Source: Alphaproteobacteria bacterium (lineage in GTDB: Bacteria > Pseudomonadota > Alphaproteobacteria > MPNO01). Taken from it: a stretch of 64,000 bases of DNA. Position numbers and translations under genes: made by a program. The stretch lies in assembly GCA_964291675.2 (NCBI GenBank), contig OZ219866.1, positions 2,464,001 through 2,528,000 of the forward strand, written 5' to 3'. Position 1 is the first letter of the stretch, and every line of letters starts with the position of its first letter. Below are positions 1 to 46,423 of the stretch, in pieces. A model generated the notes under the pieces. The model did not search any database, had not been told where the DNA came from, and saw nothing but the letters and a program-made list of their open reading frames with translations.

Positions 1-2
1 CG

Positions 3-2573
3 ATCGGCTTCCGCTGGGGCGAGACCGGCAAGTGGAACATCGAGGAGAAGGACGGCGCCGATGGCGAAACCACCCGGCTGCGGCTCAGCCTGATCGACAT
101 AAGGGACGATGTCGCCCCGGTCGGCTTCCCCTATTTCGGCAATACCAGCCACGACCATTTCGCCGGCACCGAGCATGACGAGGTGCTGTGGCGCAACGTG
201 CCGGTGAAGAGGATCGCCACCGGCGACGGCGAGATGCTGGTCGCCACGGTCTACGACCTGTTCGTTGCCAATTACGGGCTGGATCGCGGCCTGGGCGGGG
301 CCAACGTGGCCGCGGATTTCGACGACGACGTGCCCTACACGCCCGCCTGGCAGGAGCGGATCACCGGGGTCGCGCGCGACAAGGCGATCGCGGTCGCCCG
401 CCAGTTCGCCGACAACGCGCACAAGACCGAGGGCCGGTCGATGGTCATCGTCGGCGCCGCGCTCAACCACTGGTACCACATGGACATGATCTACCGCGGC
501 ATCATCAACATGCTGGTGATGTGCGGATGCGTCGGCAAGTCCGGCGGCGGCTGGTCGCACTATGTCGGGCAGGAGAAGCTCAGGCCGCAGACCGGCTGGC
601 TGCCGCTCGCCTTCGCGCTCGACTGGCACCGCCCGCCGCGGCACATGAACAGCACGTCCTTCTGGTACGCCCACAGCGACCAGTGGCGCTACGAGAAGCT
701 GGCGGTCGACGAGATCGTCTCGCCGCTCGCCCCTGCGGGCGAGTGGAACGAGCTGAGCCTGATCGACTTCAACGTCCGTTCCGAGCGCATGGGCTGGCTG
801 CCCTCGGCGCCGCAGCTCGCGAGCAATCCGCTACAGGTGACCCGGAACGCCGCCGACGGGGACCCCGTCGCGGCGGCGGTCGCCGGGCTCCGGGACGGCA
901 GCTTGCGGATGTCATCCGAGGACCCGGACGATCCGGCGAACTGGCCGCGCAATCTGTTCGTCTGGCGCTCCAACCTGCTGGGATCGAGCGGCAAGGGCCA
1001 CGAATACTTCCTCAAGCACCTGCTCGGCACCCAGCACGGCGTGCAGGGCAGGGAGCTCGGCGAGGCGGGCGAGCGGAAGCCGGTCGAGGTCGCGTGGCAC
1101 GACGCCGCGCCGGAAGGCAAGCTCGACCTGCTGGTCACCCTCGATTTCCGCATGTCGACCACCTGCCTCTACTCCGACATCGTGCTGCCGACCGCGACCT
1201 GGTACGAGAAGAACGATCTCAACACGTCGGACATGCACCCCTTCATCCACCCGCTGTCGGCCGCCGTCGACCCGGTGTGGGAGACCCGCAGCGACTGGGA
1301 GATCTTTAAGGGCATCGCCAAGAAATTCTCCGAGGTCGCCGACGGCGAGCTCGGCGTCGAGCGCGACCTGGTGCTGGTGCCCACCCTGCACGACACGCCG
1401 GCGGAGCTCGCCCAGGCGACCGGGGTCAGGGACTGGAAGAAGGGCGAGTGCGAACCCGTCCCCGGCAAGACCATGCCCAACATGGTGGTCGTCGAGCGCG
1501 ACTATCCCGCCACCTACAAGAAGTTCACCGCGCTGGGGCCGCTGATGACCGAGGCCGGCAACGGCGGCAAGGGCATCGCCTGGAACACCGAGGACGAGGT
1601 CGCGTTCCTCAAGCGGCTGAACGGCGAGGTGCGCGAGGAGGGGGTCTCCAGGGGGCTGGCGCGGATCGAGAGCGATATCGACGCCACCGAGGTGGTGCTG
1701 ACGCTCGCGCCGGAGACCAACGGCAATGTCGCGGTCAAGGCGTGGGCGGCGCTCGGCAAGGCGACCGGGCGCGAGCACAAGCATCTGGCGGCGGCGCGCG
1801 AAGAGGACAAGCTCCGCTTCCACGACCTCCAGGCGCAGCCGCGCAAGATCATCTCCTCGCCCACCTGGTCGGGGGTCGAGGCGGAGCACGTCACCTACAC
1901 GGCCGGCTACACCAACGTGCACGAGCTGATCCCGTGGCGCACCCTGTCGGGCCGCCAGCAGCTCTACCAGGACCATCTGTGGATGCGCGCCTTCGGCGAA
2001 CAGCTCTGCGTCTACAAGCCGCCGATCGACACCAAGACGATCAGCCCGCTGATCGACGACAAGGACAACGGCAGCCCGCAGGTGGTGCTCAACTTCATCA
2101 CGCCGCACCAGAAATGGGGCATCCACTCGACCTATACCGACAACCTGCTGATGCTGACGCTGTCGCGCGGCGGACCGATCGTCTGGATCAGCGAGATCGA
2201 CGCCCGCAAGGCCGGAATCGAGGACAATGACTGGATCGAGGCCTACAACGCCAACGGCGCGCTGGTCGCGCGCGCCGTGGTCAGCCAGCGCGTGCCGGAG
2301 GGCATGACGCTGATGTACCACGCCCAGGAGAAGATCGTGAACGTGCCGGGCAGCGAGGTGACGGGGTCGCGCGGCGGCATCCACAACTCGGTCACCCGCG
2401 CGACCGTCAAGCCGACCCACATGATCGGCGGCTACGCCCAGCAATCCTACGGCTTCAACTACTACGGCACCGTCGGCTCGAACCGCGACGAGTTCGTGAT
2501 CGTGCGCAAGATGCTGGCGGTCGACTGGATGGAAGGCCCCTACCGGGGCTCCCCGATGGAGGCGGCAAAATGA
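3..2573 (+). CDS. narG: Respiratory nitrate reductase alpha subunit (5' end outside window)
   Basis: Open frame from base 3 (IGFRWGETGKWN); NarG motifs HYVGQEKLRPQTGW, WRSNLLGSSGKGHEYF, TPHQKWGIHSTY; ATGA overlap with narH. Confidence 0.98.
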   Translation: MGFRWGETGKWNIEEKDGADGETTRLRLSLIDIRDDVAPVGFPYFGNTSHDHFAGTEHDEVLWRNVPVKRIATGDGEMLVATVYDLFVANYGLDRGLGGANVAADFDDDVPYTPAWQERITGVARDKAIAVARQFADNAHKTEGRSMVIVGAALNHWYHMDMIYRGIINMLVMCGCVGKSGGGWSHYVGQEKLRPQTGWLPLAFALDWHRPPRHMNSTSFWYAHSDQWRYEKLAVDEIVSPLAPAGEWNELSLIDFNVRSERMGWLPSAPQLASNPLQVTRNAADGDPVAAAVAGLRDGSLRMSSEDPDDPANWPRNLFVWRSNLLGSSGKGHEYFLKHLLGTQHGVQGRELGEAGERKPVEVAWHDAAPEGKLDLLVTLDFRMSTTCLYSDIVLPTATWYEKNDLNTSDMHPFIHPLSAAVDPVWETRSDWEIFKGIAKKFSEVADGELGVERDLVLVPTLHDTPAELAQATGVRDWKKGECEPVPGKTMPNMVVVERDYPATYKKFTALGPLMTEAGNGGKGIAWNTEDEVAFLKRLNGEVREEGVSRGLARIESDIDATEVVLTLAPETNGNVAVKAWAALGKATGREHKHLAAAREEDKLRFHDLQAQPRKIISSPTWSGVEAEHVTYTAGYTNVHELIPWRTLSGRQQLYQDHLWMRAFGEQLCVYKPPIDTKTISPLIDDKDNGSPQVVLNFITPHQKWGIHSTYTDNLLMLTLSRGGPIVWISEIDARKAGIEDNDWIEAYNANGALVARAVVSQRVPEGMTLMYHAQEKIVNVPGSEVTGSRGGIHNSVTRATVKPTHMIGGYAQQSYGFNYYGTVGSNRDEFVIVRKMLAVDWMEGPYRGSPMEAAK

Positions 2574-34952: not shown

Positions 34953-36008
34953 CTAGTCGGAAATCACGTTGCGGTAATGCGTCGCCTGCCGCCACAGCTT
35001 CTCGAAGGCCAGTTGGCTCTTCAGCACCTTGTCGAACCAGGGGTTATCCTTGGCCTGCTCCATCGCCCAGTCAATCGCCAGCTTCTTCGCCTGGCGCTGG
35101 ACGTCGGCGTCGAGCACGATGATCTCGTTGCCCTGCTTCTTGAAGAAGTCGAGCGCCTTGGCGTCCTCGTGGCCGATCCGCGTCCAGCTCTCGAAGGTGA
35201 CCGTCTTGGCGGCCAGCGCCACGAGCTGCTTGTCGCGATCGGAGAGCTTGTCCCAGGCCTTCGGGTTGATCACCAGCTCGAACGGCGCGGTCGGCTGGTG
35301 GATGCCGGGAATGATCACGTATTTGGCGATCTTGTGGAAACCCGACGAGATGTTCTCATACAGCGTGCCCCATTCCGTGGCGTCGATCGCGCCGCGCTCC
35401 AGCGAGGTATAGACCTCGCCGCCCGGCATGGTGACCGGCGCCGCGCCGAGCCCCTTGGAGATGGCGAGCCAGGCGCCCGCGGTGCGGAACTTGAGACCCT
35501 TGAGGTCGGCCAGGGTCTTCACCGGCTTGCGCGAGTGCAGGAAGGCTTCGGCGGTGCGCGTGAAGCACGGGAAGGAGACCAGGCCGAAGCGCTCCCGGTT
35601 GAAGTCCTGCCACATCTCCAGCCCGCCGCCCTCGTAGATCCAGTGCAGCATGCGCTCGGAATCCATGGCGCCGGCATAGCCGCCGAACAGCACGGTGGTC
35701 TTGTCCTTGCCCCAGTCATAGCCCATCCAGGTGTGACCGGCCTCGGCCACCCCCTTGGCGACGGCGCTGCGGACCTCCAGCCCCTTGGACAACTGCCCCG
35801 ACGGGAAGACGCGCACCGTGACGCGGCCTTCGGTCAGGAAGTCGATCTTCTTGGCGACCGCCTCGGCGCCGATCTTCATTAGCGGACCGCCGCCCCAGCT
35901 CGCCGCCATTTTCCACTTCTCGGCGGCCAGAGCCGTCTGTGCCGTGGCCACGGCGAGCCCGCAAACCGCTGCCGCGGCCAACCAGCCTTGCGCGCGAATC
36001 CGTGTCAT
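34953..36008 (-). CDS. TRAP solute-binding protein DctP (TakP/2-oxoacid-like subgroup)
   Basis: Signal peptide, WKMAASW, DLKGLKFR, MPGGEVYTSLERGAIDATEW. Confidence 0.9.
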   Translation of the reverse strand: MTRIRAQGWLAAAAVCGLAVATAQTALAAEKWKMAASWGGGPLMKIGAEAVAKKIDFLTEGRVTVRVFPSGQLSKGLEVRSAVAKGVAEAGHTWMGYDWGKDKTTVLFGGYAGAMDSERMLHWIYEGGGLEMWQDFNRERFGLVSFPCFTRTAEAFLHSRKPVKTLADLKGLKFRTAGAWLAISKGLGAAPVTMPGGEVYTSLERGAIDATEWGTLYENISSGFHKIAKYVIIPGIHQPTAPFELVINPKAWDKLSDRDKQLVALAAKTVTFESWTRIGHEDAKALDFFKKQGNEIIVLDADVQRQAKKLAIDWAMEQAKDNPWFDKVLKSQLAFEKLWRQATHYRNVISD

Positions 36009-36042
36009 GATGCGTTCCTCCCTTGGTGGATCCGGTGGTCGT

Positions 36043-36348
36043 TCAACAGGCGGGCTTCCCGAGTGCTTCGAGAGCCCGGTCGATATCGTCGCCGGTCAGT
36101 TCCCAGTCGTTCTCCAGATTGGCGACGACGGCGCGCATGAAATCCTGGCACAGCTCCAGCGCCGTCGCGTCGTCGTCCAGGTGGTCGGCGAGCACGGCCA
36201 GCGAGAGCTGGGCCGGCCCCGCGCCCTCATAGGTCCATTCGAACCCTGTCGTGGTGAACCGCTTGAGTGCATAGCGGCCGTCCAGCGGTTTGCCGTCGAC
36301 CAGCACCACGATGCCGTCGATGGTCCGGGATCCCGAATAGACCTTCAT
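36043..36348 (-). CDS. Small conserved protein, DUF6166-like
   Basis: Y.G.R...G..V.VDG.PL and GFEWTYEGAGPAQLSLAVLADH motif. Confidence 0.7.
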   Translation of the reverse strand: MKVYSGSRTIDGIVVLVDGKPLDGRYALKRFTTTGFEWTYEGAGPAQLSLAVLADHLDDDATALELCQDFMRAVVANLENDWELTGDDIDRALEALGKPAC

Positions 36349-36358
36349 CGCCCGCCGA

Positions 36359-36403
36359 CTGATATATCTGTAGTATGCTAACCGCGGCGACGAGGCTTGT
36401 AAA
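36359..36403 (-). promoter_or_regulatory. Sigma70 promoter TTTACA-N17-TAGCAT with operator CAGATATATCAG over the start site
   Basis: -35 at 36403-36398, -10 at 36380-36375, operator at 36359-36370. Confidence 0.7.
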
Positions 36404-36423
36404 CCCGGCCCCGGCCGGGGGCC

Positions 36424-37092
36424 TCATCTCGCCGCCGCGCGCTCCGGCTGCGGGGTGTCCAGGGTGGCGCGGGTGAACTCTTCGACATAGTCGATCAGCC
36501 GGTCGGAGGCCCGCGCCGCTTCGTCCGGGTCTCCTTCGGCGATGCCGCGCGCGAGCTCGGCATGCAGCCGGGCGCAGAGCGGCAGGTCCGCCGCCTCCTT
36601 GTAATGCATGTACCAGAAGCGCCGCGACAGCCCGTGAGTCTGGCCCATCGCGCGCTGCGCATACTCGTTGTGGGACGCCTCGGCCTCGAGCTGGTTGAGC
36701 GCCTGGTCGTAGCGCATGAACGCGATGTCGTCGTTCTCGCGCGATGCCTTTTCCATGCCGTCGGCGATTTCCAGGAACCGGAGCCTCTCCTCTTCCGTGC
36801 GGCGCAGCGCGCCGGTGCGCGCGATCAGCCGTTCCAGCTCGCGCCGCACTTCCAGCAGCAGGATCTGGTTGCGCGGGTTGATCTCGGTAACCAGGATTCC
36901 CTTGCGCGGCAGGACGACCACCAGCCCCTCGCGCGCGAGACGTTGCAGCGCCTCGCGTATCGGCGTGCGGCCGAAGCCGAGATCGGTGGCCAGCGCGCTC
37001 TCCGACAGGACCGCGCCCGGGCTGAGCCGCAGCGTGACGATCGCCTCCTCCAGCCGGTCATAGGCCCGGTCGGTCAGGGTCGCGTGCTTCAT
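36424..37092 (-). CDS. GntR-family (FadR/FCD) transcriptional regulator
   Basis: AYDRLEEAI...L.PG..LSE..LA..LGFGRTPIREAL; C-terminal FCD domain. Confidence 0.93.
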   Translation of the reverse strand: MKHATLTDRAYDRLEEAIVTLRLSPGAVLSESALATDLGFGRTPIREALQRLAREGLVVVLPRKGILVTEINPRNQILLLEVRRELERLIARTGALRRTEEERLRFLEIADGMEKASRENDDIAFMRYDQALNQLEAEASHNEYAQRAMGQTHGLSRRFWYMHYKEAADLPLCARLHAELARGIAEGDPDEAARASDRLIDYVEEFTRATLDTPQPERAAAR

Positions 37093-37161
37093 CGCGTCAC
37101 GGCGTCCCTCGATACGGCGCGCCCCTGCCGTGCGGGCGCCGCAAGGCGTAGCGGAAACAAG

Positions 37162-38040
37162 CTAGATCTGGCGGCGTTTCTCGACCATCGCTGCGAAGGC
37201 CTCGTACTCGCTGTCGTCGACGCCGTAGCTGTGATCGTCATCCGGAAAGGTGCCTTCTCTCACTTCGCTCGCGTAGCGGGAAATTCCATTGACCGCGACC
37301 TCGGTCAGGTTGGCATAGCGCTTGGTGAATTTGGGTTTGAAGTCGGTGAACACGCCGAGCAGATCATAGCACAGCAATATCTGGCCGTCGGTTCCGGCTC
37401 CCGCCCCGATCCCGATGGTGGGGATTTCGAGCTGCTCGGAGATCAGCCTGGCGATCCTGGCGGGTACCGCCTCGAACTCCAGCATGAAGCAGCCCGCATC
37501 CTCGATGGCCAGCGCGTCCTCGAGAATCTTCATCGCGGCATCCGCCGTCCGGCCCTGTATCCGGAAGCCTCCGAAGACGGCCACCGTATGGGGCGTCAGG
37601 CCGATATGGGACGCCGTCGGGATGCCGGAATCGACCAGGGCGCTGAGGACATGCGCCTGGCTTTTGCCGCCCTGGGGCTTGACCGCATCCGAGCCGGCGT
37701 CCTGCATGAAGCGGGTCGCGTTGGCGAGCGCCCGGTCGATGGTGTTGTAGCTCTGATAGGGCATGCAGCCGAGCACGAAGGTGTTCGGGGCGCCGCGGCG
37801 CACCGCCTGGCCGTGCATGATCATCATGTCCATGGTCGCGGGTATGGTGTTGGGATGCCCGTGGGCGATCATCGCCAGGCTGTCGCCGAGCACCGCGACA
37901 TCGACGCCGCCCATCTCCGCCCATTGCGCCGAGGTGTAGTCCGGCACCGACATGTAGACCATCTTTTCGCCGGTCGCCTTGGACCGCCGGATCTCCGTGA
38001 TGGTCCGCTTCTTGCGCGTGGTCTCGCTGGCCTCGGCCAT
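37162..38040 (-). CDS. panB: Ketopantoate hydroxymethyltransferase (PanB)-like protein, divergent active site
   Basis: LGDSL.M..HG, AVRRGAP, HIGLTP, IPTIGIGAG..TDGQIL; but GCMPY and KPQGG replace ADxPF and KxEGG. Confidence 0.8.
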   Translation of the reverse strand: MAEASETTRKKRTITEIRRSKATGEKMVYMSVPDYTSAQWAEMGGVDVAVLGDSLAMIAHGHPNTIPATMDMMIMHGQAVRRGAPNTFVLGCMPYQSYNTIDRALANATRFMQDAGSDAVKPQGGKSQAHVLSALVDSGIPTASHIGLTPHTVAVFGGFRIQGRTADAAMKILEDALAIEDAGCFMLEFEAVPARIARLISEQLEIPTIGIGAGAGTDGQILLCYDLLGVFTDFKPKFTKRYANLTEVAVNGISRYASEVREGTFPDDDHSYGVDDSEYEAFAAMVEKRRQI

Positions 38041-38054
38041 GACGCCGCTTCCCG

Positions 38055-38111
38055 TTGATCTATCTGTGATATATTAAGCGTCATTCTGGGGGAGCGCCGT
38101 GCACCCGTCAA
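38055..38111 (-). promoter_or_regulatory. Promoter TTGACG-N17-CAGAAT followed by two degenerate TGATATATCA-like sites
   Basis: -35 at 38111-38106, -10 at 38088-38083; plus strand TTGATCTATCTG/TGATATATTAA at 38055-38077. Confidence 0.6.
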
Positions 38112-38139
38112 CGTCGCGGCCGGGAAGGAGGGCCGGGCG

Positions 38140-38325
38140 ATGCCGAACAATATTCGCGCGATACTCACCGTTATCGTCGTGGCGATCGCCTGCGCGGCCT
38201 TCTGGTTCGAACACGACGCCGGCGAGACGTTCCTGAAGTGGCTGGCCGCCGGGCTCGGGGTCTTCATGGTGTTCGCGGTCTGGCTGTTCCCGGAGACCGC
38301 GCGGAAATCCGACGACCCCGATTGA
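38140..38325 (+). CDS. Small two-TM membrane protein (61 aa)
   Basis: AAGGAGG RBS, two hydrophobic helices, host-like codon use. Confidence 0.65.
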   Translation: MPNNIRAILTVIVVAIACAAFWFEHDAGETFLKWLAAGLGVFMVFAVWLFPETARKSDDPD

Positions 38326-38338
38326 GCGTCACTGCGGG

Positions 38339-39433
38339 CTAACGAAACCCGTCGATGCCGAGCTCCGCCCGGAGCCCGACCGTCGCCGCCTCCTTGGCCG
38401 GTTCGAGCGGGATTCCGGTGGCGTCGGCCACCCGGTCGAGCGCCGAGTAGTTGGCGACCACGGCGGCCGCGTCGACCAGGGCGGCATCGCCCAGGGACTC
38501 GCGCAGGCGTTCCCGGATCGTAGTCAGCCCGGCCTCGTCTTCGCCCAGCACCGCTTCCGCGAACCCCGCCAGAAGGCGTCCATGCGGGATGCCGCCGCCG
38601 CCGCTGCCGGCGATCGCCTTCAAGTTCACTTCGGTGCCGCTGGCAGTCGCGCTCGCACGGAGCATCTCGGCATGGGTGGTGGTTCAGTAGAAGCACATGT
38701 TGATGGCCGAGACCCGTCCGGCGATGAGCTCCATCTGGGCGCGGTCTATCGCGCGGTGCTTACCCGCGACGTCCGGTATCAGGCGTCCGGGGAGGTATTG
38801 CGCGTCGACCATGTCGAACAGCCCGGCCGCCTCCCGCGGCACCAGGCTGAGCGCGCGCCGGATGAAGGTCGGGTCGGGCGAGACATAGGCGCCGTCGAGG
38901 CAGGCCTCCTCGGCGGTCCGGTCTTCCGGCGCCAGCATGGCGACCCATGCCGGTCCCGCCTTGGCGCCCGCCGGCCTTGCCCGCGACGGCTCGCCCGGTT
39001 GCGGCGGCGGCAGGGGGTGCGGCGGCACCCCGATCGCGCGGCAGAAAATATCGACCGCGATCGTCGTCGCCGCGACGCCCACCGTCTCGACGAATTCCGT
39101 CTGTTCGATGCCGCTCGCCATCGCGCGGTCGAACCAGGCGCGGGTCAGGCGGCCCGGGTCGGTGGCGATCCGGTGGACGACTTCGACGACATTGCCCGGC
39201 AGGTCGGTCGCCGAGCGGTGCGATCCGGGCATCCCATAGGGCGACAGCGCGGCCTTGCAGTCCGCGCAATAGGCGCAATCGCGCGCCGCCCGGGTCTCGG
39301 CCGCGATGGCGAGCCGGCGCTCCGCGTCCAGCCAGGTGCCGGGCGCGGCGAGGCGTCGCCAGGCGCGAAAATGGGCGGCGGCCAGATCGGCGCGGACCGC
39401 GATCCCTGCCGAGTCGTATGAGAGACCGTCCAT
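38339..39433 (-). CDS. AhpD/CMD-like alkylhydroperoxidase-related protein, probable selenoprotein (UGA at 38686-38684 read as Sec), 364 aa
   Basis: ELIAGRVSAINMC-F-Y-TGA-T-T-T-H-AEML continues in frame into ORF 38339-38665; matches AhpD CxxCxxxH; hairpin downstream of the UGA. Confidence 0.82.
38635..38672 (-). other. Putative bacterial SECIS element
   Basis: RNA GCUC-CGUGC-GAGC hairpin whose G-containing loop starts ~24 nt after the UGA, enclosed by a possible UGCCG/CGGCA lower stem. Confidence 0.55.
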
Positions 39434-39447
39434 CCCGGTTCGCCCGA

Positions 39448-40452
39448 TCAGCCGGCGCGGATCGCCGGCAGCACGCGCTCGCCGAACAGCTCCACCGTCC
39501 CCGCCGGGTCGGAGGCGACGCTCACGGTGAACATGACGCGCTTCAGCCCCGCGTCCCCGGCGGCACGCAGCTGCGCGAGGCACTGCTCCGGGGTGCCGTG
39601 GATGGCGAAGCGCCCGGCGAGGTAATCGAACAGCCCGAGCTCGTCGACCAGCTCCGCATCGGCCTCGCCCGGCCTGGTGCTGTAGCGCCGGCGCAGCTCC
39701 CGCACCTTCTCGTGGTACTCCGCCGGCACGCCGCGCTCGTCGAGATCGTCCGAGGCCAGAATGTAGCCGCCCGCCATGAAGGCGAGGATCGCGCCGGCCC
39801 GGCGCCTCGCGGCCCCGCCGTCCAGGTTGCAGTCAAGGCTCGCGATCTGCCACGTCTCGACATCCTCCGCGGCGCGTCCGGCGGCCCGCGCCCCCTCGGC
39901 AACGAGGGCTTCGGAATAGGCCAGATTCTCCCGCGCGATCCCGAAATTGACGAACGCGCCGTCGGCGATCCCGCCCGCCAGCCGGAGCGTCCTCGGGCCG
40001 GACCCGGCGAGGAAGACGCGCGGGCCGGTCCGCGCCCAGGGGAGGTGGGAAGCGGCATCGCCAAGCGCCGTCGGCGCGCCCGAGGTCAGCGCCTTGATGA
40101 AGCGGATTCCATCGTCCATGTCGCGGAGCCCCGAGCTCGGGAGGCCCAGGTTCCGCGTGCCGCTGTGCCCGGCGCCGAGCCCGAGCACCGTCCTTCCCGG
40201 GGCGAGCAGATCGAGCGAGGAGATCGCCGCGGCGGAGACCGAGGGGTGGCGCGATGACAGGTTGGTGACGCAGAGCGCGACCCGCGCCCGGCTCGTCTCG
40301 CGGGCGACGACGGCGGCCGCGACCCAGGGGTCCATCGCGTTGCCCGGGGTATCGGCGATGCCGATCATGTCGTAGCTCCAGCGGTCCGCCGCCCGCGCCA
40401 TGCGCTCGATCAGTTCCGGCGTGTAGGGCCAGAAGAAGAACCCGATCTCCAT
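39448..40452 (-). CDS. LLM-class (luciferase-like/Mer-like) flavin-dependent oxidoreductase
   Basis: MEIGFFFW; DPWV.AA, VTNL.SRHP, APGR.VLGLGAG, AGSGPRTLRLAG.IADG, GTPEQC. Confidence 0.88.
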   Translation of the reverse strand: MEIGFFFWPYTPELIERMARAADRWSYDMIGIADTPGNAMDPWVAAAVVARETSRARVALCVTNLSSRHPSVSAAAISSLDLLAPGRTVLGLGAGHSGTRNLGLPSSGLRDMDDGIRFIKALTSGAPTALGDAASHLPWARTGPRVFLAGSGPRTLRLAGGIADGAFVNFGIARENLAYSEALVAEGARAAGRAAEDVETWQIASLDCNLDGGAARRRAGAILAFMAGGYILASDDLDERGVPAEYHEKVRELRRRYSTRPGEADAELVDELGLFDYLAGRFAIHGTPEQCLAQLRAAGDAGLKRVMFTVSVASDPAGTVELFGERVLPAIRAG

Positions 40453-40463
40453 CGCAATCTCCG

Positions 40464-41414
40464 TCAGACCACCCGGAACCGGAGCGGCTCGCCGGCGGCG
40501 AGGCGCCGGCAGTTGTCGAGCGCCACGTCCAGGCTGCGCTCGATGGTGTCCATGGTGAGCCAGGCGACATGCGGGGCCAAGACCGCATTGTCGAGTGCGA
40601 GCAGCGGATTGCCGGGCGCCACCGGCTCGTGGGCAAAGACGTCGAGCCCTGCCGCCCCGAGACGGCCGCTCGCAAGCGCCTCCGCGAGTGCCGCCTCGTC
40701 GACCAGGCTGCCGCGCGCCGTGTTGACCAGCACCGCCCCCGGCTTCATGCGCGCGAGCGCGACGGCGTCGATCATGCCGACGGTCTCCGGAGTCTCCGGG
40801 ACGTGGAGCGAGACGATGTCGGATTCTTCGAGCAGCGCCGGCAGCGTACGCCACTCGGCGAGACCCTCCGCCTCCTCCTTGGGTGCGCGCGCGGTATAGA
40901 GCAGGCGCGCGCCGAGCGCCTTGAGCACCGGGGCCAGTGCTTGCGGCACGGCGCCGTAGCCGACCAGCCCGACGATCCGCCCGCCGATCTCGCCCAGGCG
41001 ATCCTGCATGGCGCCGTCGAGCTTCCAGCCCGCGCCCTCGCGCGTCGCACGATCGAACGCCGGCAGCCGGCGCAGCGCCGCCAGCATCAGGGCGAGCGTC
41101 ATCTCCGCGACCGCCCTCGTGTTGGTTCCCGGCATGTTGCACACCGGGATGTCGCGGGCGCGCGCGGCATCGAGGTCGATGGTGTTGACCCCGACGCCGA
41201 TCTTCTGGATCAGAAGCAGCCCGGGCGCCGCCGCGATGTCGGCCCCCGAGACCGGGCGCAGCACGTGCCAGAGCACGTCCGCGTCGGTCATCAGCGCCCG
41301 GAAACGCGCATCGTCGGCCGCCGGGCAGACGGCGATATCGAGCCCGTCGCCCGACACCTCGGCCAGCCGGCGGGCGAGTGCCGGGCCCGCGTCGTAGTGG
41401 AAGATCACCCGCAT
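40464..41414 (-). CDS. D-isomer-specific 2-hydroxyacid dehydrogenase
   Basis: GVGVNTID, N..AVAE, GLVGYGAV, SLHVP, VNTARG, LDVF..EP, PHVAW. Confidence 0.92.
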   Translation of the reverse strand: MRVIFHYDAGPALARRLAEVSGDGLDIAVCPAADDARFRALMTDADVLWHVLRPVSGADIAAAPGLLLIQKIGVGVNTIDLDAARARDIPVCNMPGTNTRAVAEMTLALMLAALRRLPAFDRATREGAGWKLDGAMQDRLGEIGGRIVGLVGYGAVPQALAPVLKALGARLLYTARAPKEEAEGLAEWRTLPALLEESDIVSLHVPETPETVGMIDAVALARMKPGAVLVNTARGSLVDEAALAEALASGRLGAAGLDVFAHEPVAPGNPLLALDNAVLAPHVAWLTMDTIERSLDVALDNCRRLAAGEPLRFRVV

Positions 41415-42700
41415 CGCCGTCCCCAGGGGAATTGCGAGCGCGGCGGCAGCCGGCCGCCCGTCGGCAGGGTCTCGGCGATCCTGAGCCCTTCGTTCCACTT
41501 CGCGGTGCGCTCGCCATGGGCGATCGAGCCGATTTTGAGCTGTCCCACCCCCCAGCCGAGGGCGAGATGGACCACGGTCACGTCCTCGGTCTCGCCCGAG
41601 CGCGCCGAGACCACGGCGCCGTAACCCGCCGCCCGCGCGGCGTCCAGCGCCGCCCGGCAGAGGCTCAGCGTACCCGCCTGGTTGGGCTTGAGCAGGACCG
41701 CGTTACAGGCGCCCTGGGCCGCCGCCCGGTGCACGCGGTCCGCGTTGCTGACCAGGGCGTCGTCGCCCACCACCTGGACGCCGGCGCCGAACGCGCTTGT
41801 GAAGGCGGCGAGCCCCGCCATGTCGTCCTCGGCCAGCGGGTCCTCGACCGAGACGATGGGAAAGCGTTCGATCCAGCCGCCCAGCAATGCGCACATGCCG
41901 TCCGGGTCGAGCGCCCGCCCGTCCCGGGCGAGGCGGTAGCGTCCGTCCGCACAGAACTCGGAAGCCGCGATATCGAGGGAGATGCCGACCTCTTCGCCCG
42001 GCACCAGGCCGGCGCGCTCTATCGCCCGGGCAAGGGTTTCGAGCGCGTCCTCGTTGCTGTCGAACGCGGGCCACAGCCCGCCCTCGTCGGCGGTGCCGGC
42101 GAGCGCGCCCCGTCCGGCCATGATCTCGCCCGCGGCGCGGTAGATCTCCGCCGTCCAGTCGAGCGCCTCGGCGTAGTCCGATGCGCCGGTCGCGATCACC
42201 ATGAAATCCTGCACGTCGACCCGCCGCGCGGCATGCGCCCCTCCACCGAAGATCTGGATCTCGGGGAGCGGCATCATGGGCTCCGCATCGCCGGCGAGGT
42301 GGCGCCACAGCGGCAACCCCCGCGCGGCGGCGGCGGCGTGGGCGGTCGCCATCGACGCGGCGACCATCGCGTTGCCGCCGAGCCGCGAGGCGTCCGCCGT
42401 GCCGTCGAGTGCCGCGAGGCAGTGGTCGACGGCCTCCTGGTCGCAGGCGTCGAGCCCGGCGAGGGCGGCGGCGATCTCGCCGTCGACCGCGGCGATCGCG
42501 CGGGTCACGTCCAACCCGCCGAACGCCTCGCCGCCGTCGCGCAAATCCACCGCCTCGGCGCTTCCCCGAGAGGCGCCGGAAGGCGCGATCGCCCGCCCGC
42601 GCGCGCCGCCCGCGAGCGCGATCTCGACCTCGACCGTAGGCCGGGCGCGCGAGTCCCACACCCGGCGCCCCTTCACCGAGCGGATCGCCGTCGCGTTCAA
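41405..42700 (-). CDS. Enolase paralog (phosphopyruvate hydratase-like) with altered active site
   Basis: TTG start overlaps the upstream stop; DSRARPTVEV, PSGAS, DEGG, LDIAASEF, SVEDP, VGDD, LLKPNQ, SARSGETED. Confidence 0.88.
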   Translation of the reverse strand: MNATAIRSVKGRRVWDSRARPTVEVEIALAGGARGRAIAPSGASRGSAEAVDLRDGGEAFGGLDVTRAIAAVDGEIAAALAGLDACDQEAVDHCLAALDGTADASRLGGNAMVAASMATAHAAAAARGLPLWRHLAGDAEPMMPLPEIQIFGGGAHAARRVDVQDFMVIATGASDYAEALDWTAEIYRAAGEIMAGRGALAGTADEGGLWPAFDSNEDALETLARAIERAGLVPGEEVGISLDIAASEFCADGRYRLARDGRALDPDGMCALLGGWIERFPIVSVEDPLAEDDMAGLAAFTSAFGAGVQVVGDDALVSNADRVHRAAAQGACNAVLLKPNQAGTLSLCRAALDAARAAGYGAVVSARSGETEDVTVVHLALGWGVGQLKIGSIAHGERTAKWNEGLRIAETLPTGGRLPPRSQFPWGRRCG

Positions 42701-43713
42701 ACCCCGAGCTCCGCCGCCCAGGCGGCGCGCACGGCACGAAGACGCGAGACAGGGGATTGGAGCAGGGTGCGGGCGACGCGGCGCACCCGGTCCCTTTCGG
42801 CTTCCTCCGTCACGTATTCCACCGGCGACTTGCCGTCGATCCGGGCGAGGAACAGCCCCGCCAGCAAGGGGGCCGCGCGGGCTTCGAGAACCTCCGGGGG
42901 TTCCCAGTCGACGCCGCCCAGATAGGTCCGGGCGAGAACGTCGAAGCAGTCCAGGAAGCCGGGTGCCGCCTCCGGCGTCCACAGGCATTTGAGCAGCAGG
43001 TGGTTGAGGCAGAAGGCGAGGTCGAAGGCGGGGTCGCCGTACCACGCGCATTCGGCATCGAGGAACACCGGCCCGGCCTTCCCGATCAGGATGTTCTTGG
43101 GGCTCACGTCGCCATGCACTAAGGCGAGCCGGGTCGCCGCCGTCCTCTCGACGATCTGGCCGAGCCGGCCGGCAAGGTCCGGATGGGCGCGGGCCGCGGT
43201 CTCCAGATAGGGTTCGAGACGGATCGCATGGAAGATCCCGTCGGAAGCGAAGCGCCGGGCCACGTCGTCGCGCCCCGCGGTGCCGGCGTGGATGGCGCGG
43301 ATGGCGGCGGCGACACGGCGCGCATCGTCCGGCTCGGCCTCGCCCCGGCGCAGCTTCTCCTTCCACAGCGGGAATTCGCCGGGCTCCAGAAAGTCCATCG
43401 CGATCAGCCCGGCCTGCCGGTCGTGGCCCAGCAGACGCGGCACCGCCTGCGGCACGATCCGCCCGGCGGTCTCGATCCACGCCGCTTCGAAGGCGTTGCG
43501 CTCGACCGGCGCGCGCCAGTCCGAGGCGACCTTGAGCCGGGCGAGCGCGCGCTTGACGCAGACACAGCGCCCGCCGATGTCGATCTTCCAGATGTCGGAC
43601 GACACCCCGCCGGGAAGCGCGGTCGCGCGCAATTGCGCCCCGCAGGGGACGAGGCCGAGCCGGCCCAGCGCCGTCAGGACCTCCCGGGGCGCGGTCCCGG
43701 CTTCGCCCGCCAT
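42697..43713 (-). CDS. Aminoglycoside-phosphotransferase/MtnK-like small-molecule kinase
   Basis: GGVSSD, CVKRAL..L, HGDVSPKNIL, LDAECAWYGDPAFD. Confidence 0.85.
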   Translation of the reverse strand: MAGEAGTAPREVLTALGRLGLVPCGAQLRATALPGGVSSDIWKIDIGGRCVCVKRALARLKVASDWRAPVERNAFEAAWIETAGRIVPQAVPRLLGHDRQAGLIAMDFLEPGEFPLWKEKLRRGEAEPDDARRVAAAIRAIHAGTAGRDDVARRFASDGIFHAIRLEPYLETAARAHPDLAGRLGQIVERTAATRLALVHGDVSPKNILIGKAGPVFLDAECAWYGDPAFDLAFCLNHLLLKCLWTPEAAPGFLDCFDVLARTYLGGVDWEPPEVLEARAAPLLAGLFLARIDGKSPVEYVTEEAERDRVRRVARTLLQSPVSRLRAVRAAWAAELGV

Positions 43714-43720
43714 GCCGGAT

Positions 43721-44713
43721 TCATCCGGGCAGGGGGGCGATGCCGAGGACCGGCGGCAGGCCCGACAGAACGGGGGCAAATTCCTCCCCGCCGTCCTCGC
43801 TCGCCCAGATCCCGCCGTCGTTGAGGCCGACGAGCACGGTCCCGGAGGACGCGGGATCGACCGCGATCGAGCGCGGCGCGGGCGCCAGCCGCTCCGGGAG
43901 TCCGCCGGTCTGTCGACTCCAAGTCTTGCCGCCGTCCTCGCTTCGGTAGAACCCGGCCCCGGCGCCTTCCGGGCGCCTCCAGCCGGGCGGTGGCACCTCC
44001 GCGCCCGCGGTGAACAGCACGTTCGGCCGGTCCGCGTGGACCGCGACGTTGATCAGATAGGGGTGCGCGATCCCCGTATCCGATTGCGCGAAACTCTCGC
44101 CCCCGTCGGCGCTGCGATACAGGCCGTGACCCGAGGCCGAGACCACGGTCTTCCCGTCTGGAAGAACCGTGACCGTGTGCGAATCGAACTCGGTGCCGTC
44201 CTTGATGTTGGCCCAGCTCCCGCCGCCGTCGGCCGAGCGCACCAGCCATCCCTCCTCGACCGCGCCGAATATGACGCCGGGGTCGGAGGGAGACAGGCCG
44301 ATGCCGCGGACATGGGCGACGAAGGGCGGGCCCGGGAAGGTCCAGTCCTTGCGTGTCGGCAGGCGGCGCAGGCTCTCCAGCTCCTCCCAGCTCTCCCCGC
44401 CATCGGTCGATTTGAAGATGCAGGCGGGCTCGGTGCCGACATAGAGCTCGCCGGTATCCGGATGACGGGCGAGCGAGAGCGCGTGCTTGTAGACCAGCCC
44501 CGCGTTCTTCTCGGCCCAGCGCCGCCCCCCGTCATCGGTGCGCCAGACGCCGGCGCGCTCGGTCGCCGCCCAGGCCCGGCCGGGGCGGGACGGGTCCGCC
44601 AGGATCCAGCGGACCACGCCTTCCAGCCCCAGCGGACGGGCCTCATAGCCCGCGCCGTTGCTCTCGGCCAGGAAGACGCCGTTGCCCGTCGCGAGCAGGA
44701 GAGAGGTGCCCAT
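43721..44713 (-). CDS. BNR/Asp-box beta-propeller protein, no signal peptide
   Basis: Repeated Asp-boxes TDDGG.RW, STDGGESW, SADGGGSW, SADGGESF, SEDGGKTW, SEDGGEEF. Confidence 0.85.
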   Translation of the reverse strand: MGTSLLLATGNGVFLAESNGAGYEARPLGLEGVVRWILADPSRPGRAWAATERAGVWRTDDGGRRWAEKNAGLVYKHALSLARHPDTGELYVGTEPACIFKSTDGGESWEELESLRRLPTRKDWTFPGPPFVAHVRGIGLSPSDPGVIFGAVEEGWLVRSADGGGSWANIKDGTEFDSHTVTVLPDGKTVVSASGHGLYRSADGGESFAQSDTGIAHPYLINVAVHADRPNVLFTAGAEVPPPGWRRPEGAGAGFYRSEDGGKTWSRQTGGLPERLAPAPRSIAVDPASSGTVLVGLNDGGIWASEDGGEEFAPVLSGLPPVLGIAPLPG

Positions 44714-44851
44714 CTGCCCCTCCGAGACGATTGCGTGGGACGCGGAACCGATCACAACCCGTCCGCCGACACCCGTCAAGCCGCGCGTTGGACCGCCGCG
44801 CGGGCGCGCTCTAGCATTTGCGAAAGCCAATCGCGGTGATTGCTTCCAACC

Positions 44852-46423
44852 ATGCCGAGGCATGCCGAGACCCAGGTCGCGATCGTCGGTGCCGGCCCGG
44901 TCGGGCTCGCGCTTGCCATCGAGCTCGGGCTGCGCGGTGTCGCCTGCGTCGTCATCGAGCGGCGCGCGGGCGCCCCCCGCGTGCCCCGGATGAGCAGCGT
45001 CAGCGGCCGCAACATGGAGTTCTGCCGGCGCTGGGGGATCGCGGAGGAGGTGCGGAGCGCCGCGTGGTCGCCCGCCCATCCGATGGATTTCGTCTATGTC
45101 GAGACCATGACCGGGCGCGAGCTGGCCCGGCTCAAGATCCCGTCCTACGCCGAGAGCGCGGGCCGGCTCGACTACACGCCGGAGGGGCCGGCGACCTGCC
45201 CGCAGATCTATTTCGATCCCATCCTCGCCGAGAAGGCGCGATCGCTCGACCGCGTGACGCTCGACTACGGCACGAGGCTGGAGAGCTTCGAGAGGCACGC
45301 GAACGGCGTTCGCGCCCATCTCGTCGGCGTGAGCTCCGGCGCCCGCTCGACGGTCTCCGCCGAGTATCTCGTCGGCTGCGACGGGGCGGGCGGAACCGTC
45401 CGGCGCCTTCTCGCCATCCCGCTCGACGGCCAGGGGACGATAGCGAGCAGCGTCAACGTGTTCTTCCGGTCGCGCGAATTCGCGGCGATGCACGACAAGG
45501 GCTGGGCGCGGTTCTTCCGCTTCTTCGGCGACGACGGGTGCTGGGGCGAGGCGATCGCGATCGACGGCAGGGAGCTCTGGCGGCTCTCGGTCTTCCACGA
45601 CCCGGACCCCGACCTGGCCGGACACTCCTATCTGCGCAAGCTCGCCGGGCGCGACTTCGACTACCAGATCCTCGACGTCTCTCCCTGGGAGCGGCGCGAC
45701 TTCCTGGCCCGGTTCTACCGCCGCGGGCGGGTGCTGATCGCCGGCGACGCGGCGCACCAGACCTCGCCGACCGGCGGGGCGGGCATGCATATCGGGGTGT
45801 GCGAGGCGGTCAATCTCGGCTGGAAGCTCGCCGCCCTGCTCGACGGCTGGGGCGGGGCAAGGCTGCTCGATTCCTACGAGGCCGAGTCCCGCCCGGTCGC
45901 CGGCCGCTTCGTCGCGCTGTCGACGCAGACCTTCGATGCCATCGCCGCGCTGCCCGGGGCCGAGGCGTTCCGCCGCGCGTTCGAGGCCGATCCCGGCATC
46001 CTGCGGCGGCTCTCGCTGGCCGACCGGTTGCGGACGCAGCTCTGCTACGAGGGCTCGCCGGTCTGCGTGCCCGACGGAACCCCGCCGCCCGACCCCCCGG
46101 ACGATCCGCTGCACACGGCGCGCCCCGGCGGCCGCGCGCCGCATTGCTGGATCGGCGGCGGGCGCTCGACGATCGATCTGTTCGGCCGGGGCTTCGTGCT
46201 GCTGCGCTTGGGCCGCCCGCCCGCCGATGCCTCGCCGCTGGTCGCGGCGGCCGCCGCCGCGCGGGTTCCGCTGGAGGTCGTCGACATCGAGCATGCGGAG
46301 GCCGAGGCGCTCTACGGAAGGAGGCTGGTCCTCGTCCGCCCCGACGGCCATGTCGCCTGGCGCGGCAACGGGACGCCCGTCGACGCGGCGGCGCTGATCG
46401 AGCGGGTGCGCGGCGCCGGGTGA
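44852..46423 (+). CDS. FAD-dependent monooxygenase (PheA/TfdB/RdmE-like)
   Basis: VAIVGAGPVG, LVGCDG, AGDAAH..PTGG.GM, NLGWKL, LVRPDGHVAW. Confidence 0.92.
   Translation: MPRHAETQVAIVGAGPVGLALAIELGLRGVACVVIERRAGAPRVPRMSSVSGRNMEFCRRWGIAEEVRSAAWSPAHPMDFVYVETMTGRELARLKIPSYAESAGRLDYTPEGPATCPQIYFDPILAEKARSLDRVTLDYGTRLESFERHANGVRAHLVGVSSGARSTVSAEYLVGCDGAGGTVRRLLAIPLDGQGTIASSVNVFFRSREFAAMHDKGWARFFRFFGDDGCWGEAIAIDGRELWRLSVFHDPDPDLAGHSYLRKLAGRDFDYQILDVSPWERRDFLARFYRRGRVLIAGDAAHQTSPTGGAGMHIGVCEAVNLGWKLAALLDGWGGARLLDSYEAESRPVAGRFVALSTQTFDAIAALPGAEAFRRAFEADPGILRRLSLADRLRTQLCYEGSPVCVPDGTPPPDPPDDPLHTARPGGRAPHCWIGGGRSTIDLFGRGFVLLRLGRPPADASPLVAAAAAARVPLEVVDIEHAEAEALYGRRLVLVRPDGHVAWRGNGTPVDAAALIERVRGAG

What the first reader, a model, noticed from the sequence alone, without database searches (positions are those of the whole stretch)
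38339..39433. Hidden selenoprotein: in-frame UGA forms a CxxU-xxx-H redox motif in an AhpD-like protein
Seen: ORF 38684-39433 ends ...ELIAGRVSAINMCFY-TGA, and the same frame continues ACC ACC ACC CAT GCC GAG ATG into ORF 38339-38665, which has no convincing RBS. Read-through gives C-F-Y-U-T-T-T-H, the AhpD/CMD CxxCxxxH motif with UGA at the second Cys. A GCUC-CGUGC-GAGC hairpin follows at a SECIS-like distance. The N-half carries another Cys cluster (CAYCADC). Known: bacteria recode UGA as Sec using a 3'-adjacent SECIS, and AhpD-like selenoproteins have been predicted from metagenomes, but I know of no defined function. Standard gene callers split this gene. Here it is the last gene of a catabolic operon, directly after an LLM oxidoreductase.
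Basis: partly seen in the sequence, partly recalled or inferred. Interest (0 to 1): 0.85.

Follow-up and report, generated by a model that had tools for sequence, protein, structure and literature searches.

The report
Known AhpD-related selenoprotein gene, split by callers

Summary
Window 39433..38339 (minus strand) is one 364-codon frame with a single in-frame TGA (38686-38684) inside C-F-Y-U-T-T-T-H.

It is a full-length member of NCBIfam NF041238, [quoted passage not shown]: 460 bits against a cut-off of 175. A 2026 review equates this family with "hypothetical protein 1" of the 2005 Sargasso Sea selenoproteome.

- The genome carries selA, selB, selD and tRNA-Sec.
- All 100 above-cut-off family matches listed from 41 related genomes have one in-frame TGA.
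- A Cys homologue exists.
- A 15-nt hairpin (UGCUC-CGUGC-GAGCG) starts 19 nt after the UGA. It is nearly invariant in 39 homologues, and its codons are the only ones frozen at synonymous sites.
- The predicted fold is two-lobed. The C-lobe resembles solved AhpD-like proteins, and the whole protein resembles Sestrin2.

The biochemical function is still unknown. The link to the LLM gene is not general. The genome holds five Sec paralogues.

Verdict: real, correctly interpreted, already known, low interest.

The parts
38339..39433 (-). One coding sequence of 364 codons plus stop TAG (38341-38339): AhpD-related selenoprotein, NCBIfam NF041238
   Evidence: frame, single TGA. (NF041238: 460.4 bits, cut-off 175, residues 13-363 on profile positions 1-355 of 357). 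(the same place found in the genome with '1 TGA').
38684..38686 (-). UGA codon 250, read as selenocysteine (inferred)
   Evidence: TGA at this column in 39 of 39 aligned homologue genes and in 100 of 100 listed above-cut-off matches. Cys in P0048.
38650..38664 (-). Putative SECIS apical hairpin: stem U-G-C-U-C (38664-38660), loop C-G-U-G-C (38659-38655), stem G-A-G-C-G (38654-38650). It starts 19 nt after the UGA.
   Evidence: RNAalifold consensus gives 5 pairs. The pairs form in 93.6% of cells, against 23.5-53.8% when the partners are slid. Its codons L258 CTC, R259 CGT and A260 GCG are the only 3 of 120 conserved degenerate codon columns that use a single codon. An unrelated SelW-like selenoprotein gene of the same genome has the same loop on a different stem.
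38672..38731 (-). Active-site motif E235-x11-C247-F-Y-U250-T-T-T-H254 (AhpD-type E-x11-C-x-x-C-x3-H with Sec at the second Cys)
   Evidence: E235, C247, Y249, U250, T251 and H254 are invariant in 24 homologues. The motif aligns to E-x11-C-V-Y-C-A-V-S-H of solved 6k40.
39266..39277 (-). N-lobe C53-x-x-C56 pair (possible second redox or metal site)
   Evidence: C56 is invariant and C53 is kept in at least 90% of 24 homologues; it is missing in the fifth paralogue.
38960..39433 (-). N-terminal all-helical lobe (about residues 1-158), specific to this family
   Evidence: No Pfam hit. Modelled with pLDDT mostly above 90. Covered only by the Sestrin2 match, model residues 1..342, Z 17.3.
38342..38959 (-). 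C-terminal AhpD-like lobe (about residues 159-364)
   Evidence: Profile against PDB: 6k40 at E 2.3e-13 over profile positions 176-340. VIA-align: 6k40_B Z 13.9, rmsd 2.9, 177 aligned, model residues 160..353.
39448..40500 (-). Upstream neighbour: luciferase-like (LLM-class) oxidoreductase, 14 nt from the selenoprotein start. The start coordinate is approximate.
   Evidence: Pfam Bac_luciferase, 133.7 bits. No NCBIfam model reaches its cut-off.

Best explanation
Window 39433..38339 (-) is a single gene for a 364-residue selenoprotein of family NF041238 (AhpD_rel_CFYUT).

Shown:
- One frame crosses a single UGA.
- It fits the curated family profile end to end.
- The UGA column is kept in all homologues examined.
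- A Cys homologue exists.
- The complete Sec machinery is in the genome.
- A short hairpin starting 19 nt after the UGA is frozen at synonymous sites.

Inferred:
- SelB carrying Sec-tRNA(Sec) binds that hairpin (loop CGUGN) on the translating mRNA. UGA250 is therefore read as Sec instead of stop.
- The protein folds into two helical lobes arranged as in Sestrin2.
- The C-lobe is AhpD-like and carries E235-x11-C247-x-x-U250-x3-H254.
- By analogy with AhpD-type CxxC proteins, the selenolate of U250 attacks an oxidised substrate: a hydroperoxide, or the oxidised cysteine of a peroxiredoxin-type partner. C247 resolves the adduct as a selenenylsulfide. An external thiol system then re-reduces it. 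The conserved N-lobe C53-x-x-C56 may act as a relay.

I put the identity as a genuine Sec protein of this family at about 0.95. I put peroxide or peroxiredoxin-linked reductase chemistry at about 0.5. The real substrate is unknown.
For: - Frame and motif.
- Family: NF041238 at 460.4 bits against a cut-off of 175, E 4.2e-138, residues 13-363.
- Sec machinery: selB 455.7 bits (cut-off 242.25), selA 565.5 (267.9), selD 314.4 (125), tRNA-Sec 76.7 (47) with anticodon TCA.
- Conserved UGA: 32 of 41 related genomes have an above-cut-off match. All 100 listed above-cut-off rows carry one in-frame TGA, by my hand count. The own genome has 5 such genes.
- Wider set: 39 of 39 distinct homologue genes have TGA at the same column, including a Deltaproteobacteria MAG at 46% identity.
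- Cys homologue: P0048, 386 aa, 46% identical, C-A-F-C-A-P-I-H.
- Hairpin: RNAalifold consensus of 5 pairs. Pairs form in 93.6% of cells, against 23.5-53.8% when slid.
- Synonymous sites: only 3 of 120 conserved degenerate codon columns use one codon, and these are the consecutive hairpin codons. They include the Arg codon CGT in 39 of 39 sequences. None of the 19 other conserved Arg columns has CGT as its commonest codon.
- Independent gene: a SelW-like selenoprotein gene of the same genome has CCCUC-CGUGC-GAGGG starting 18 nt after its UGA.
- Compensated variant: the fifth paralogue keeps the loop on a different, bulged stem.
- Fold: AlphaFold2 pLDDT 93.3, pTM 0.93. Sestrin2 Z 17.3; 6k40 Z 13.9. 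6k40 profile match E 2.3e-13 with the motif aligned.
- Chemistry precedent: passages of PMC8945050 report that the CxxC cysteines of the 6k40 protein (DR1765) matter for H2O2 tolerance.
Against: - No physical evidence for selenium in the protein.
- The window's own hairpin is weak. It folds at -5.1 kcal/mol and 55 of 200 shuffles fold as well. The 71 nt after the UGA fold no better than shuffles (z 0.16).
- The stem shows almost no covariation: 3 of 6 pairs never vary and only 1 cell has a double change. The support is conservation, not compensatory change.
- No Rfam family matches at the site.
- Pfam CMD scores 21.4 bits, below its 23-bit cut-off. The models for AhpD proper and for peroxidase-related enzymes are far below their cut-offs. 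The peroxide chemistry is therefore an analogy.
- Neighbours of the five paralogues differ, so context gives no common partner.
- The same fold also hosts a debrominase, Bmp8 (Z 13.0), and a leucine sensor, Sestrin2.
Confidence: 0.9

Rival explanations
1. It is the same selenoprotein, but its substrate is not a peroxide. It would act on a small molecule or protein of the local pathway (LLM oxidoreductase, 2-hydroxyacid dehydrogenase, enolase, kinase-like protein), for example as a reductase like the AhpD-fold debrominase Bmp8, or as a redox sensor.
For: There is a 14-nt gap to the LLM gene. LLM lies upstream in 8 of 13 orthologue loci. Another paralogue lies downstream of a Rieske oxygenase alpha subunit gene on the same strand. 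Bmp8 matches the fold at Z 13.0 and Sestrin2 at Z 17.3.
Against: LLM is directly adjacent in only 1 of the 13 orthologue loci. It is missing from the 4 kb upstream in the 88%-identical L038. It is near none of the 4 other paralogues. The E-x11-CxxC/U-x3-H motif is the AhpD type.
Confidence: 0.3
2. Decoding is facultative. UGA250 is partly or conditionally read as stop, so the cell also makes a 249-residue N-lobe protein (for example when selenium is scarce) that has a role of its own.
For: The hairpin of this copy is weak at -5.1 kcal/mol, against -11.9 for the best paralogue. The N-lobe is a compact, confidently modelled unit with its own conserved CxxC.
Against: The part after the UGA is as conserved as the part before it. 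Among the best 120 database hits, 119 are UGA-truncated calls and none is a natural stand-alone N-lobe form that could be told apart from them. The 'shorter' length class was not searched.
Confidence: 0.12
3. The TGA is a true stop. There are two separate genes, or a gene broken by a nonsense mutation or a sequencing error.
For: Gene callers split it: 119 of the best 120 database relatives are about 209-285 residues long and cover at most 68% of the query. The ORF listing gives two ORFs.
Against: TGA sits at the same column in 100 of 100 and 39 of 39 homologues. The profile fits across the TGA. The second ORF has no ribosome-binding site. The Sec machinery is present. An identical 211-nt contig from another study bridges the TGA with 0 differences (X2, record 9).
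Confidence: 0.02

Closest known systems
NCBIfam NF041238, AhpD_rel_CFYUT, alkylhydroperoxidase-related (seleno)protein (= 'hypothetical protein 1' of the Sargasso Sea selenoproteome, Zhang, Fomenko and Gladyshev 2005)
   Same: Full-length profile match at 460 bits with a cut-off of 175. The exact C-F-Y-U-T motif, a CxxU redox motif and a SECIS-like hairpin after the UGA.
   Different: Nothing defining. This copy is one of five paralogues in its genome and sits behind an LLM gene. The papers I read do not mention either point (passages only).
AhpD-like / peroxidase-related CxxC proteins with solved structures (D. radiodurans DR1765 6k40, 2prr, 2oyo, 3c1l, 2pfx; TIGR01926, COG2128 type)
   Same: The C-lobe fold (Z 12.5-13.9), the sequence profile (E 2.3e-13 to 7.8e-8) and an aligned E-x11-C-x-Y-C-x-x-x-H motif.
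   Different: They are single-lobe proteins of about 190 residues with Cys, not Sec. TIGR01926 scores only 40.9 bits against a cut-off of 81.8. They have no N-lobe.
Mycobacterium tuberculosis AhpD (1knc; TIGR00777)
   Same: Helical AhpD fold and CxxC-x3-H chemistry, with an upstream Glu. The residue roles are recalled, not from a call.
   Different: 17.9 bits against a cut-off of 191.95. Z is only 7.9. No lipoamide/AhpC partnership was examined here.
Sestrin2 (human; 5dj4, 5t0n, 5cuf)
   Same: Best whole-protein structural match: two AhpD-like helical lobes, Z 17.3, rmsd 3.3, 238 residues aligned over model residues 1..342.
   Different: 12% identity and no sequence-level relation was shown. 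Foldseek E is only 0.11. In Sestrin2 the AhpD-like redox motif is in the N-lobe (recalled); here it is in the C-lobe. Helical folds give high Z easily.
'AhpD-like 1/2' and CMD-domain selenoproteins of marine metagenomes (Zhang and Gladyshev 2008)
   Same: CxxU motif in an AhpD/CMD fold, abundant in metagenomes, function unknown.
   Different: Those are the COG2128 and PF02627 single-domain families. The review lists NF041238 as a separate entry.

Membership tests
NCBIfam NF041238 (AhpD_rel_CFYUT) | Whole-protein score above the curated cut-off (175 bits) | tested here: met
   460.4 bits, E 4.2e-138. 452.2 bits when found in the genome.
NCBIfam NF041238 (AhpD_rel_CFYUT) | End-to-end coverage of the 357-position profile, i.e. 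both lobes | tested here: met
   Residues 13-363 on profile positions 1-355 of 357.
NCBIfam NF041238 (AhpD_rel_CFYUT) | C-x-Y-U/C-T motif that gives the model its name | tested here: met
   C247-F-Y-U250-T251. The column is invariant in 24 homologues.
Bacterial selenoprotein (UGA read as Sec) | In-frame UGA conserved at one column among homologues | tested here: met
   100 of 100 listed above-cut-off matches. 39 of 39 genes.
Bacterial selenoprotein (UGA read as Sec) | Cys-containing homologue at the same column | tested here: met
   P0048, C-A-F-C. 6k40, C-V-Y-C. Only 1 of the best 120 database relatives is a full-length Cys form.
Bacterial selenoprotein (UGA read as Sec) | SECIS stem-loop just downstream of the UGA, with a small apical loop containing G | tested here: met
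   A 5-bp stem with loop CGUGC starts 19 nt after the UGA. Synonymous sites are frozen. Its stability alone is not significant. The criterion is taken from PMC1088965 passages.
Bacterial selenoprotein (UGA read as Sec) | selA, selB, selC and selD in the genome | tested here: met
   All score above their curated cut-offs.
Bacterial selenoprotein (UGA read as Sec) | Selenium physically present in the polypeptide | not testable with these tools
   Needs 75Se labelling or mass spectrometry.
Pfam PF02627 CMD / AhpD superfamily | Score above the gathering cut-off (23 bits) | tested here: not met
   21.4 bits for the single sequence. Superfamily kinship is nevertheless supported by the profile search (E 2.3e-13) and by the fold (Z 13.9).
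AhpD proper (TIGR00777) | Score above the cut-off (191.95 bits) | tested here: not met
   17.9 bits. It is not an AhpD orthologue.
Peroxidase-related enzyme (TIGR01926, COG2128 type) | Score above the cut-off (81.8 bits) | tested here: not met
   40.9 bits on residues 229-344 only.
Sestrin family | Sequence-level family membership | not tested
   Only structural similarity was seen (Z 17.3, 12% identity). No Sestrin Pfam hit appeared at E up to 1.

The most novel reading that the evidence does not exclude
NF041238 proteins are bacterial Sestrin-like two-lobe selenoenzymes with two redox centres, in which the N-lobe CxxC feeds the C-lobe CxxU. In this Defluviicoccus-related lineage they have multiplied into five always-Sec paralogues per genome, each attached to a different oxygenase or dehydrogenase locus as a dedicated peroxide or adduct scavenger.
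Probability: 0.12. Interest if true: 0.45.

Novelty: already known. Interest (0 to 1): 0.15.

Why it matters
- **Annotation:** this gene, and 119 of the best 120 database relatives, are stored as truncated 'hypothetical proteins' because gene callers stop at the UGA. The gene should be one selenoprotein CDS with Sec at codon 250.
- **Biology:** the family has had no known function since 2005. A lineage with five Sec paralogues per genome, a strongly conserved SECIS and a confident two-lobe model would be a reasonable system in which to find that function.
- **Limit:** nothing here changes what is known about Sec decoding.

Tried and rejected
- **Rfam** at E up to 10 over 36000-42000: 8 weak matches (best E 0.27), none at the UGA or hairpin.
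- **Thermodynamic test of the SECIS:** the 71 nt after the UGA give z 0.16. The 20-nt hairpin is matched by 55 of 200 shuffles. Stability alone does not single it out.
- **Covariation:** RNAalifold found 0 compensatory pairs. The count of structure pairs found 1 double-change cell. Proof by covariation is therefore not possible within the family.
- **Internal duplication of the two lobes by BLASTP:** E 0.71, not shown.
- **Foldseek against PDB:** 0 matches at E <= 0.001; the best is 6k40_A at 1.1e-3. VIA-align was used for the aligned ranges.
- **Functional link through neighbours:** the paralogues have unrelated neighbours: a Rieske oxygenase alpha subunit, an AsnC regulator and TrxB; a 3-hydroxyisobutyrate-dehydrogenase-like gene; DsbA-like and DnaK genes; a CMD protein. 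TrxB lies about 650 nt from the best-scoring paralogue, across a divergent regulator. I treat that as a lead only.
- **Phylum-wide sample:** 0 of 400 other genomes have a match at E <= 1e-40. At most 4 candidates per genome were scored, so this shows rarity in the sample, not absence.
- **Sequencing runs:** one holder carries 0.99 of the sampled words and may be the source. The rest hold 0.05-0.12 of the words, many labelled sponge metagenome. One run is an RNA library whose contigs, from relatives, cross the UGA region. That does not show transcription of this gene, and I draw no habitat claim from it.
- **Not done:** Complex prediction, the protein-atlas search and the search of protein representatives were not used, because the family assignment was already decisive. 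Supplementary files of papers were not asked for. The Sargasso and GOS supplements may list more members and Cys forms of 'hypothetical protein 1'. The gene between LLM and the selenoprotein gene in 7 orthologue loci was not identified (one search listed the ORFs only).
Full report
**1. The observation**

On the minus strand the frame that starts at ATG 39433 reads ...ELIAGRVSAINMCFY. It then meets TGA at 38686-38684, continues ACC ACC ACC CAT GCC GAG ATG..., and ends at TAG 38341-38339.
- Read with TGA=U it gives 364 residues with one recoded codon, U250, inside C247-F-Y-U-T-T-T-H254.
- A mechanical ORF list splits it into 38684..39583 and 38339..38665.
- The second piece starts at an ATG with no Shine-Dalgarno-like sequence before it (read).
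- The N-half Cys cluster C53-A-Y-C56-A-D-C59 is present.

**2. What it is**

The read-through protein matches NCBIfam NF041238, [quoted passage not shown], an equivalog model. The score is 460.4 bits (curated cut-off 175, E 4.2e-138), over residues 13-363 and profile positions 1-355 of 357.

Other models are far weaker:
- Pfam CMD: 21.4 bits, below its 23-bit cut-off.
- TIGR01926: 40.9 bits against 81.8.
- TIGR00777 (AhpD proper): 17.9 bits against 191.95.

[quoted passage not shown] The 2005 Sargasso Sea paper describes hypothetical protein 1 as four Sec sequences with a conserved CXXU motif, a SECIS-like stem-loop and no functional evidence (passages of PMC1088965). A full-text search for "NF041238" finds only that review. 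The family is therefore known and its function is not.

**3. Tests of Sec decoding**

(a) Machinery. The window's genome (4.8 Mb, two contigs) has all four components, each above its curated cut-off:
- selB, 455.7 bits.
- selA, 565.5 bits, next to selB.
- tRNA-Sec, 76.7 bits, beside them. ARAGORN calls it tRNA-SeC with anticodon TCA.
- selD, 314.4 bits, elsewhere in the genome.

(b) Conservation of the UGA.
- The own genome has five NF041238 genes, each with exactly one in-frame TGA.
- All five read C-x-Y-U-T-x-x-H-A at the same place, with strong conservation on both sides.
- In 41 genomes (own, genus, family, order), 37 have some match and 32 have a match above the cut-off.
- All 100 listed above-cut-off rows show "1 TGA" by my hand count of the table. 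One row also has a TAG, and 17 weaker matches were not listed.
- Genomes of the same genus carry 4-5 copies each. The five-paralogue set is therefore older than the species.
- From these loci and 13 loci of genome contigs I extracted 39 distinct genes. All have TGA at the same column.
- The 13 genome contigs records are titled Defluviicoccus sp. (4), Alphaproteobacteria bacterium (6), Rhodospirillales (1), Rhodospirillaceae (1) and Deltaproteobacteria (1).

(c) Cys homologue.
- In the large protein database, 702 proteins match at E <= 1e-10.
- Of the best 120, 119 are 209-285 residues long and cover at most 68% of the query. These are products truncated at the UGA; where they are named, the name is "hypothetical protein".
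- One, P0048 (386 aa, 46% identical, 93% coverage), is full length. It has Cys at the Sec column, C-A-F-C-A-P-I-H.

(d) SECIS.
- A 14-nt block, TGCTCCGTG[C/A/T]GAGC, is invariant or nearly so in the 39 sequences. The one freely variable base is the last loop position.
- RNAalifold predicts exactly this hairpin as the consensus: 5 pairs, -5.31 kcal/mol.
- The six pairs I named form in 93.6% of cells, against 23.5-53.8% when the 3' partners are slid.
- Covariation is almost absent, because the stem does not vary.
- I therefore tested synonymous sites. Among 120 codon columns whose amino acid is conserved and degenerate, only three use a single codon in every sequence: L258 CTC (39/39), R259 CGT (39/39) and A260 GCG (34/34). 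S261 AGC follows at 38/39. These are the hairpin codons.
- CGT is the commonest codon in none of the 19 other conserved Arg columns.
- A genome-wide scan for the loop-plus-stem core found 12 hits, and 7 of them have a TGA 9-34 nt upstream. Five are the paralogues. One is spurious, in a frame full of stops. One lies 21 nt after an in-frame TGA in a small gene reading MAIRIEYCRVUNYEP....
- That small gene matches the SelT/SelW/SelH family: TIGR02174 at 55 bits, cut-off 34.2.
- Its hairpin is CCCUC-CGUGC-GAGGG. It has the same loop on a different but complementary stem, and folds at -7.8 kcal/mol.
- The fifth paralogue keeps the loop (CGUGA) on a bulged, compensated stem.
- Together this points to a stem capped by CGUGN, about 20 nt after the UGA, as the element that this organism's SelB recognises.

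Weaknesses of the SECIS case:
- The window's own hairpin is weak at -5.1 kcal/mol, and 55 of 200 shuffles fold as well. The best paralogue folds at -11.9, matched by 3 of 200 shuffles.
- The longer 71-nt stretch folds no better than shuffles.
- No Rfam model hits the site.

(e) Reads.
- Contigs of four public runs were laid on 38300-39500.
- An identical 211-nt contig from a second study bridges the UGA with 0 differences.
- No difference at 38684-38686 appears among the 40 rows shown; 72 more rows were not shown.
- The best holder may be the source sample, so it is not independent.

**4. The protein**

AlphaFold2 with a 24-sequence alignment gives a confident all-helical model: pLDDT 93.3, pTM 0.93.
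- The C-terminal lobe (about 159-353) superposes on solved AhpD-like "peroxidase-related" proteins: 6k40_B at Z 13.9, rmsd 2.9, 177 residues; 2oyo at 13.7; 2prr at 13.6.
- It superposes less well on M. tuberculosis AhpD (1knc, Z 7.9).
- The whole model (1..342) matches human Sestrin2 best: Z 17.3, rmsd 3.3, 238 residues, 12% identity.
- Sestrin2 is built of two AhpD-like lobes (recalled). Helical proteins reach high Z easily, so I treat this as a likeness of architecture and not as kinship.
- A profile of the family finds 6k40 at E 2.3e-13. The alignment places E-x11-C-V-Y-C-A-V-S-H of 6k40 on E235-x11-C247-F-Y-U250-T-T-T-H254.
- According to a review, a mutant lacking DR1765 (the 6k40 protein) is more sensitive to H2O2. 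Its CxxC cysteines are needed for full complementation (passages of PMC8945050).
- Invariant residues in the family include E235, C247, Y249, U250, T251, H254, L258, R259 and S261, and C56 in the N-lobe. C53, H72 and H87 are nearly invariant.
- BLASTP does not show the two lobes to be repeats of each other (E 0.71).

**5. How it most likely works**

Shown: one gene, a family member, a conserved UGA, a Cys counterpart, the Sec machinery, and a hairpin under selection at the RNA level.

Inferred:
- SelB binds the hairpin and delivers Sec-tRNA(Sec) to UGA250.
- U250 sits where the second Cys of the AhpD-type CxxC lies. From memory of the M. tuberculosis AhpD literature, that Cys is the attacking nucleophile.
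- U250 reacts with a hydroperoxide or an oxidised peroxiredoxin-type partner.
- C247 resolves the adduct as a selenenylsulfide, and a thiol system re-reduces it.
- The N-lobe CxxC is a candidate relay or metal site.

I give the chemistry about even odds. The same fold also carries a debrominase (Bmp8, Z 13.0) and a ligand sensor (Sestrin2).

**6. Context**

- Upstream on the same strand lie a kinase-like APH protein, an enolase, a D-2-hydroxyacid dehydrogenase and the LLM-class oxidoreductase. The LLM gene ends 14 nt before the selenoprotein start.
- Downstream, after 298 nt, lie panB, a GntR regulator and TRAP transporter genes.
- No terminator-like site was found after the gene. One promoter-like site precedes panB.
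- LLM lies upstream in 8 of 13 orthologue loci. It is directly adjacent in only one of them (L037); in the other seven, about 0.9-1.0 kb lies between.
- The 88%-identical L038 lacks LLM within 4 kb.
- None of the four other paralogues has this LLM within 8 kb. Their neighbours are unrelated to one another.

**7. Distribution**

The family is dense in this order: 32 of 41 genomes, several copies each. It was not found at E <= 1e-40 in 400 other genomes drawn evenly across the phylum. At most 4 candidates per genome were scored, and this is a sample, not proof of absence.

**8. Verdict**

The gene belongs to a selenoprotein family that has been in print since 2005 and is curated at NCBI under a name that spells out its motif.

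What is mildly new here:
- the five-fold, always-Sec expansion in this lineage;
- the strongly frozen SECIS core shared with the genome's SelW-like gene;
- the Sestrin-like two-lobe model.

None of this changes current understanding. Novelty: already known. Interest: low.

Noticed in passing
G000:C1:551370-551585 (+), outside the window (locus L054:1370-1585): A small SelT/SelW/SelH-family selenoprotein gene (MAIRIEYCRVU..., TIGR02174 at 55 bits against a cut-off of 34.2). It has an in-frame TGA at C1:551400 and a hairpin CCCUC-CGUGC-GAGGG starting 18 nt after it. The apical loop is the same as in the AhpD-related genes.
   Followed up: partly
G000:C2:580921-581970, C1:738871-739923, C2:1279510-1280562, C2:951686-952723 (all +), outside the window: Four more NF041238 paralogues sit in the same genome, each with one in-frame TGA at the same motif. 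Genomes of the same genus carry 4-5 copies each. The fifth paralogue lacks the first Cys of the N-lobe CxxC.
   Followed up: partly
G000:C2:2837316-2841709 (-), about 310 kb from the window: selA, selB and tRNA-Sec lie together as one cluster. selD is elsewhere, at C2:1869115-1870017.
   Followed up: yes
window 39448-43779 (-): An unusual gene row lies upstream: an APH-type kinase-like protein, a full enolase (Enolase_N plus Enolase_C), a D-2-hydroxyacid dehydrogenase and an LLM-class oxidoreductase, with overlapping or nearly abutting frames. The row is conserved in L037 and partly in L040. The pathway was not identified.
   Followed up: no
window 43721-46561 (-): A long frame (946 aa as listed) with BNR/Asp-box, Sortilin-Vps10 and YCF48-like repeats.
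   Followed up: no
L050:7698-8675 (+) = G000:C2:582618-583595: A thioredoxin-disulfide reductase gene (TIGR01292, 385 bits against a cut-off of 343) lies about 650 nt downstream of the best-scoring paralogue, beyond a divergent AsnC-type regulator. A Rieske oxygenase alpha subunit gene lies upstream.
   Followed up: partly
window 38669-38709: In contigs of metagenome runs laid at 85% likeness, summed depth peaks sharply at the UGA/active-site stretch (684, 823 and 122 in three runs, against tens elsewhere). The SECIS bin beside it (38628-38668) comes next. Many related genes from other organisms align only there, which fits nucleotide-level conservation of this stretch.
   Followed up: no
L039-L043, L045, L046: about 3060-4000: In seven orthologue loci about 0.9-1.0 kb lies between the LLM gene and the selenoprotein gene. 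This stretch is absent from the window and was not identified.
   Followed up: no
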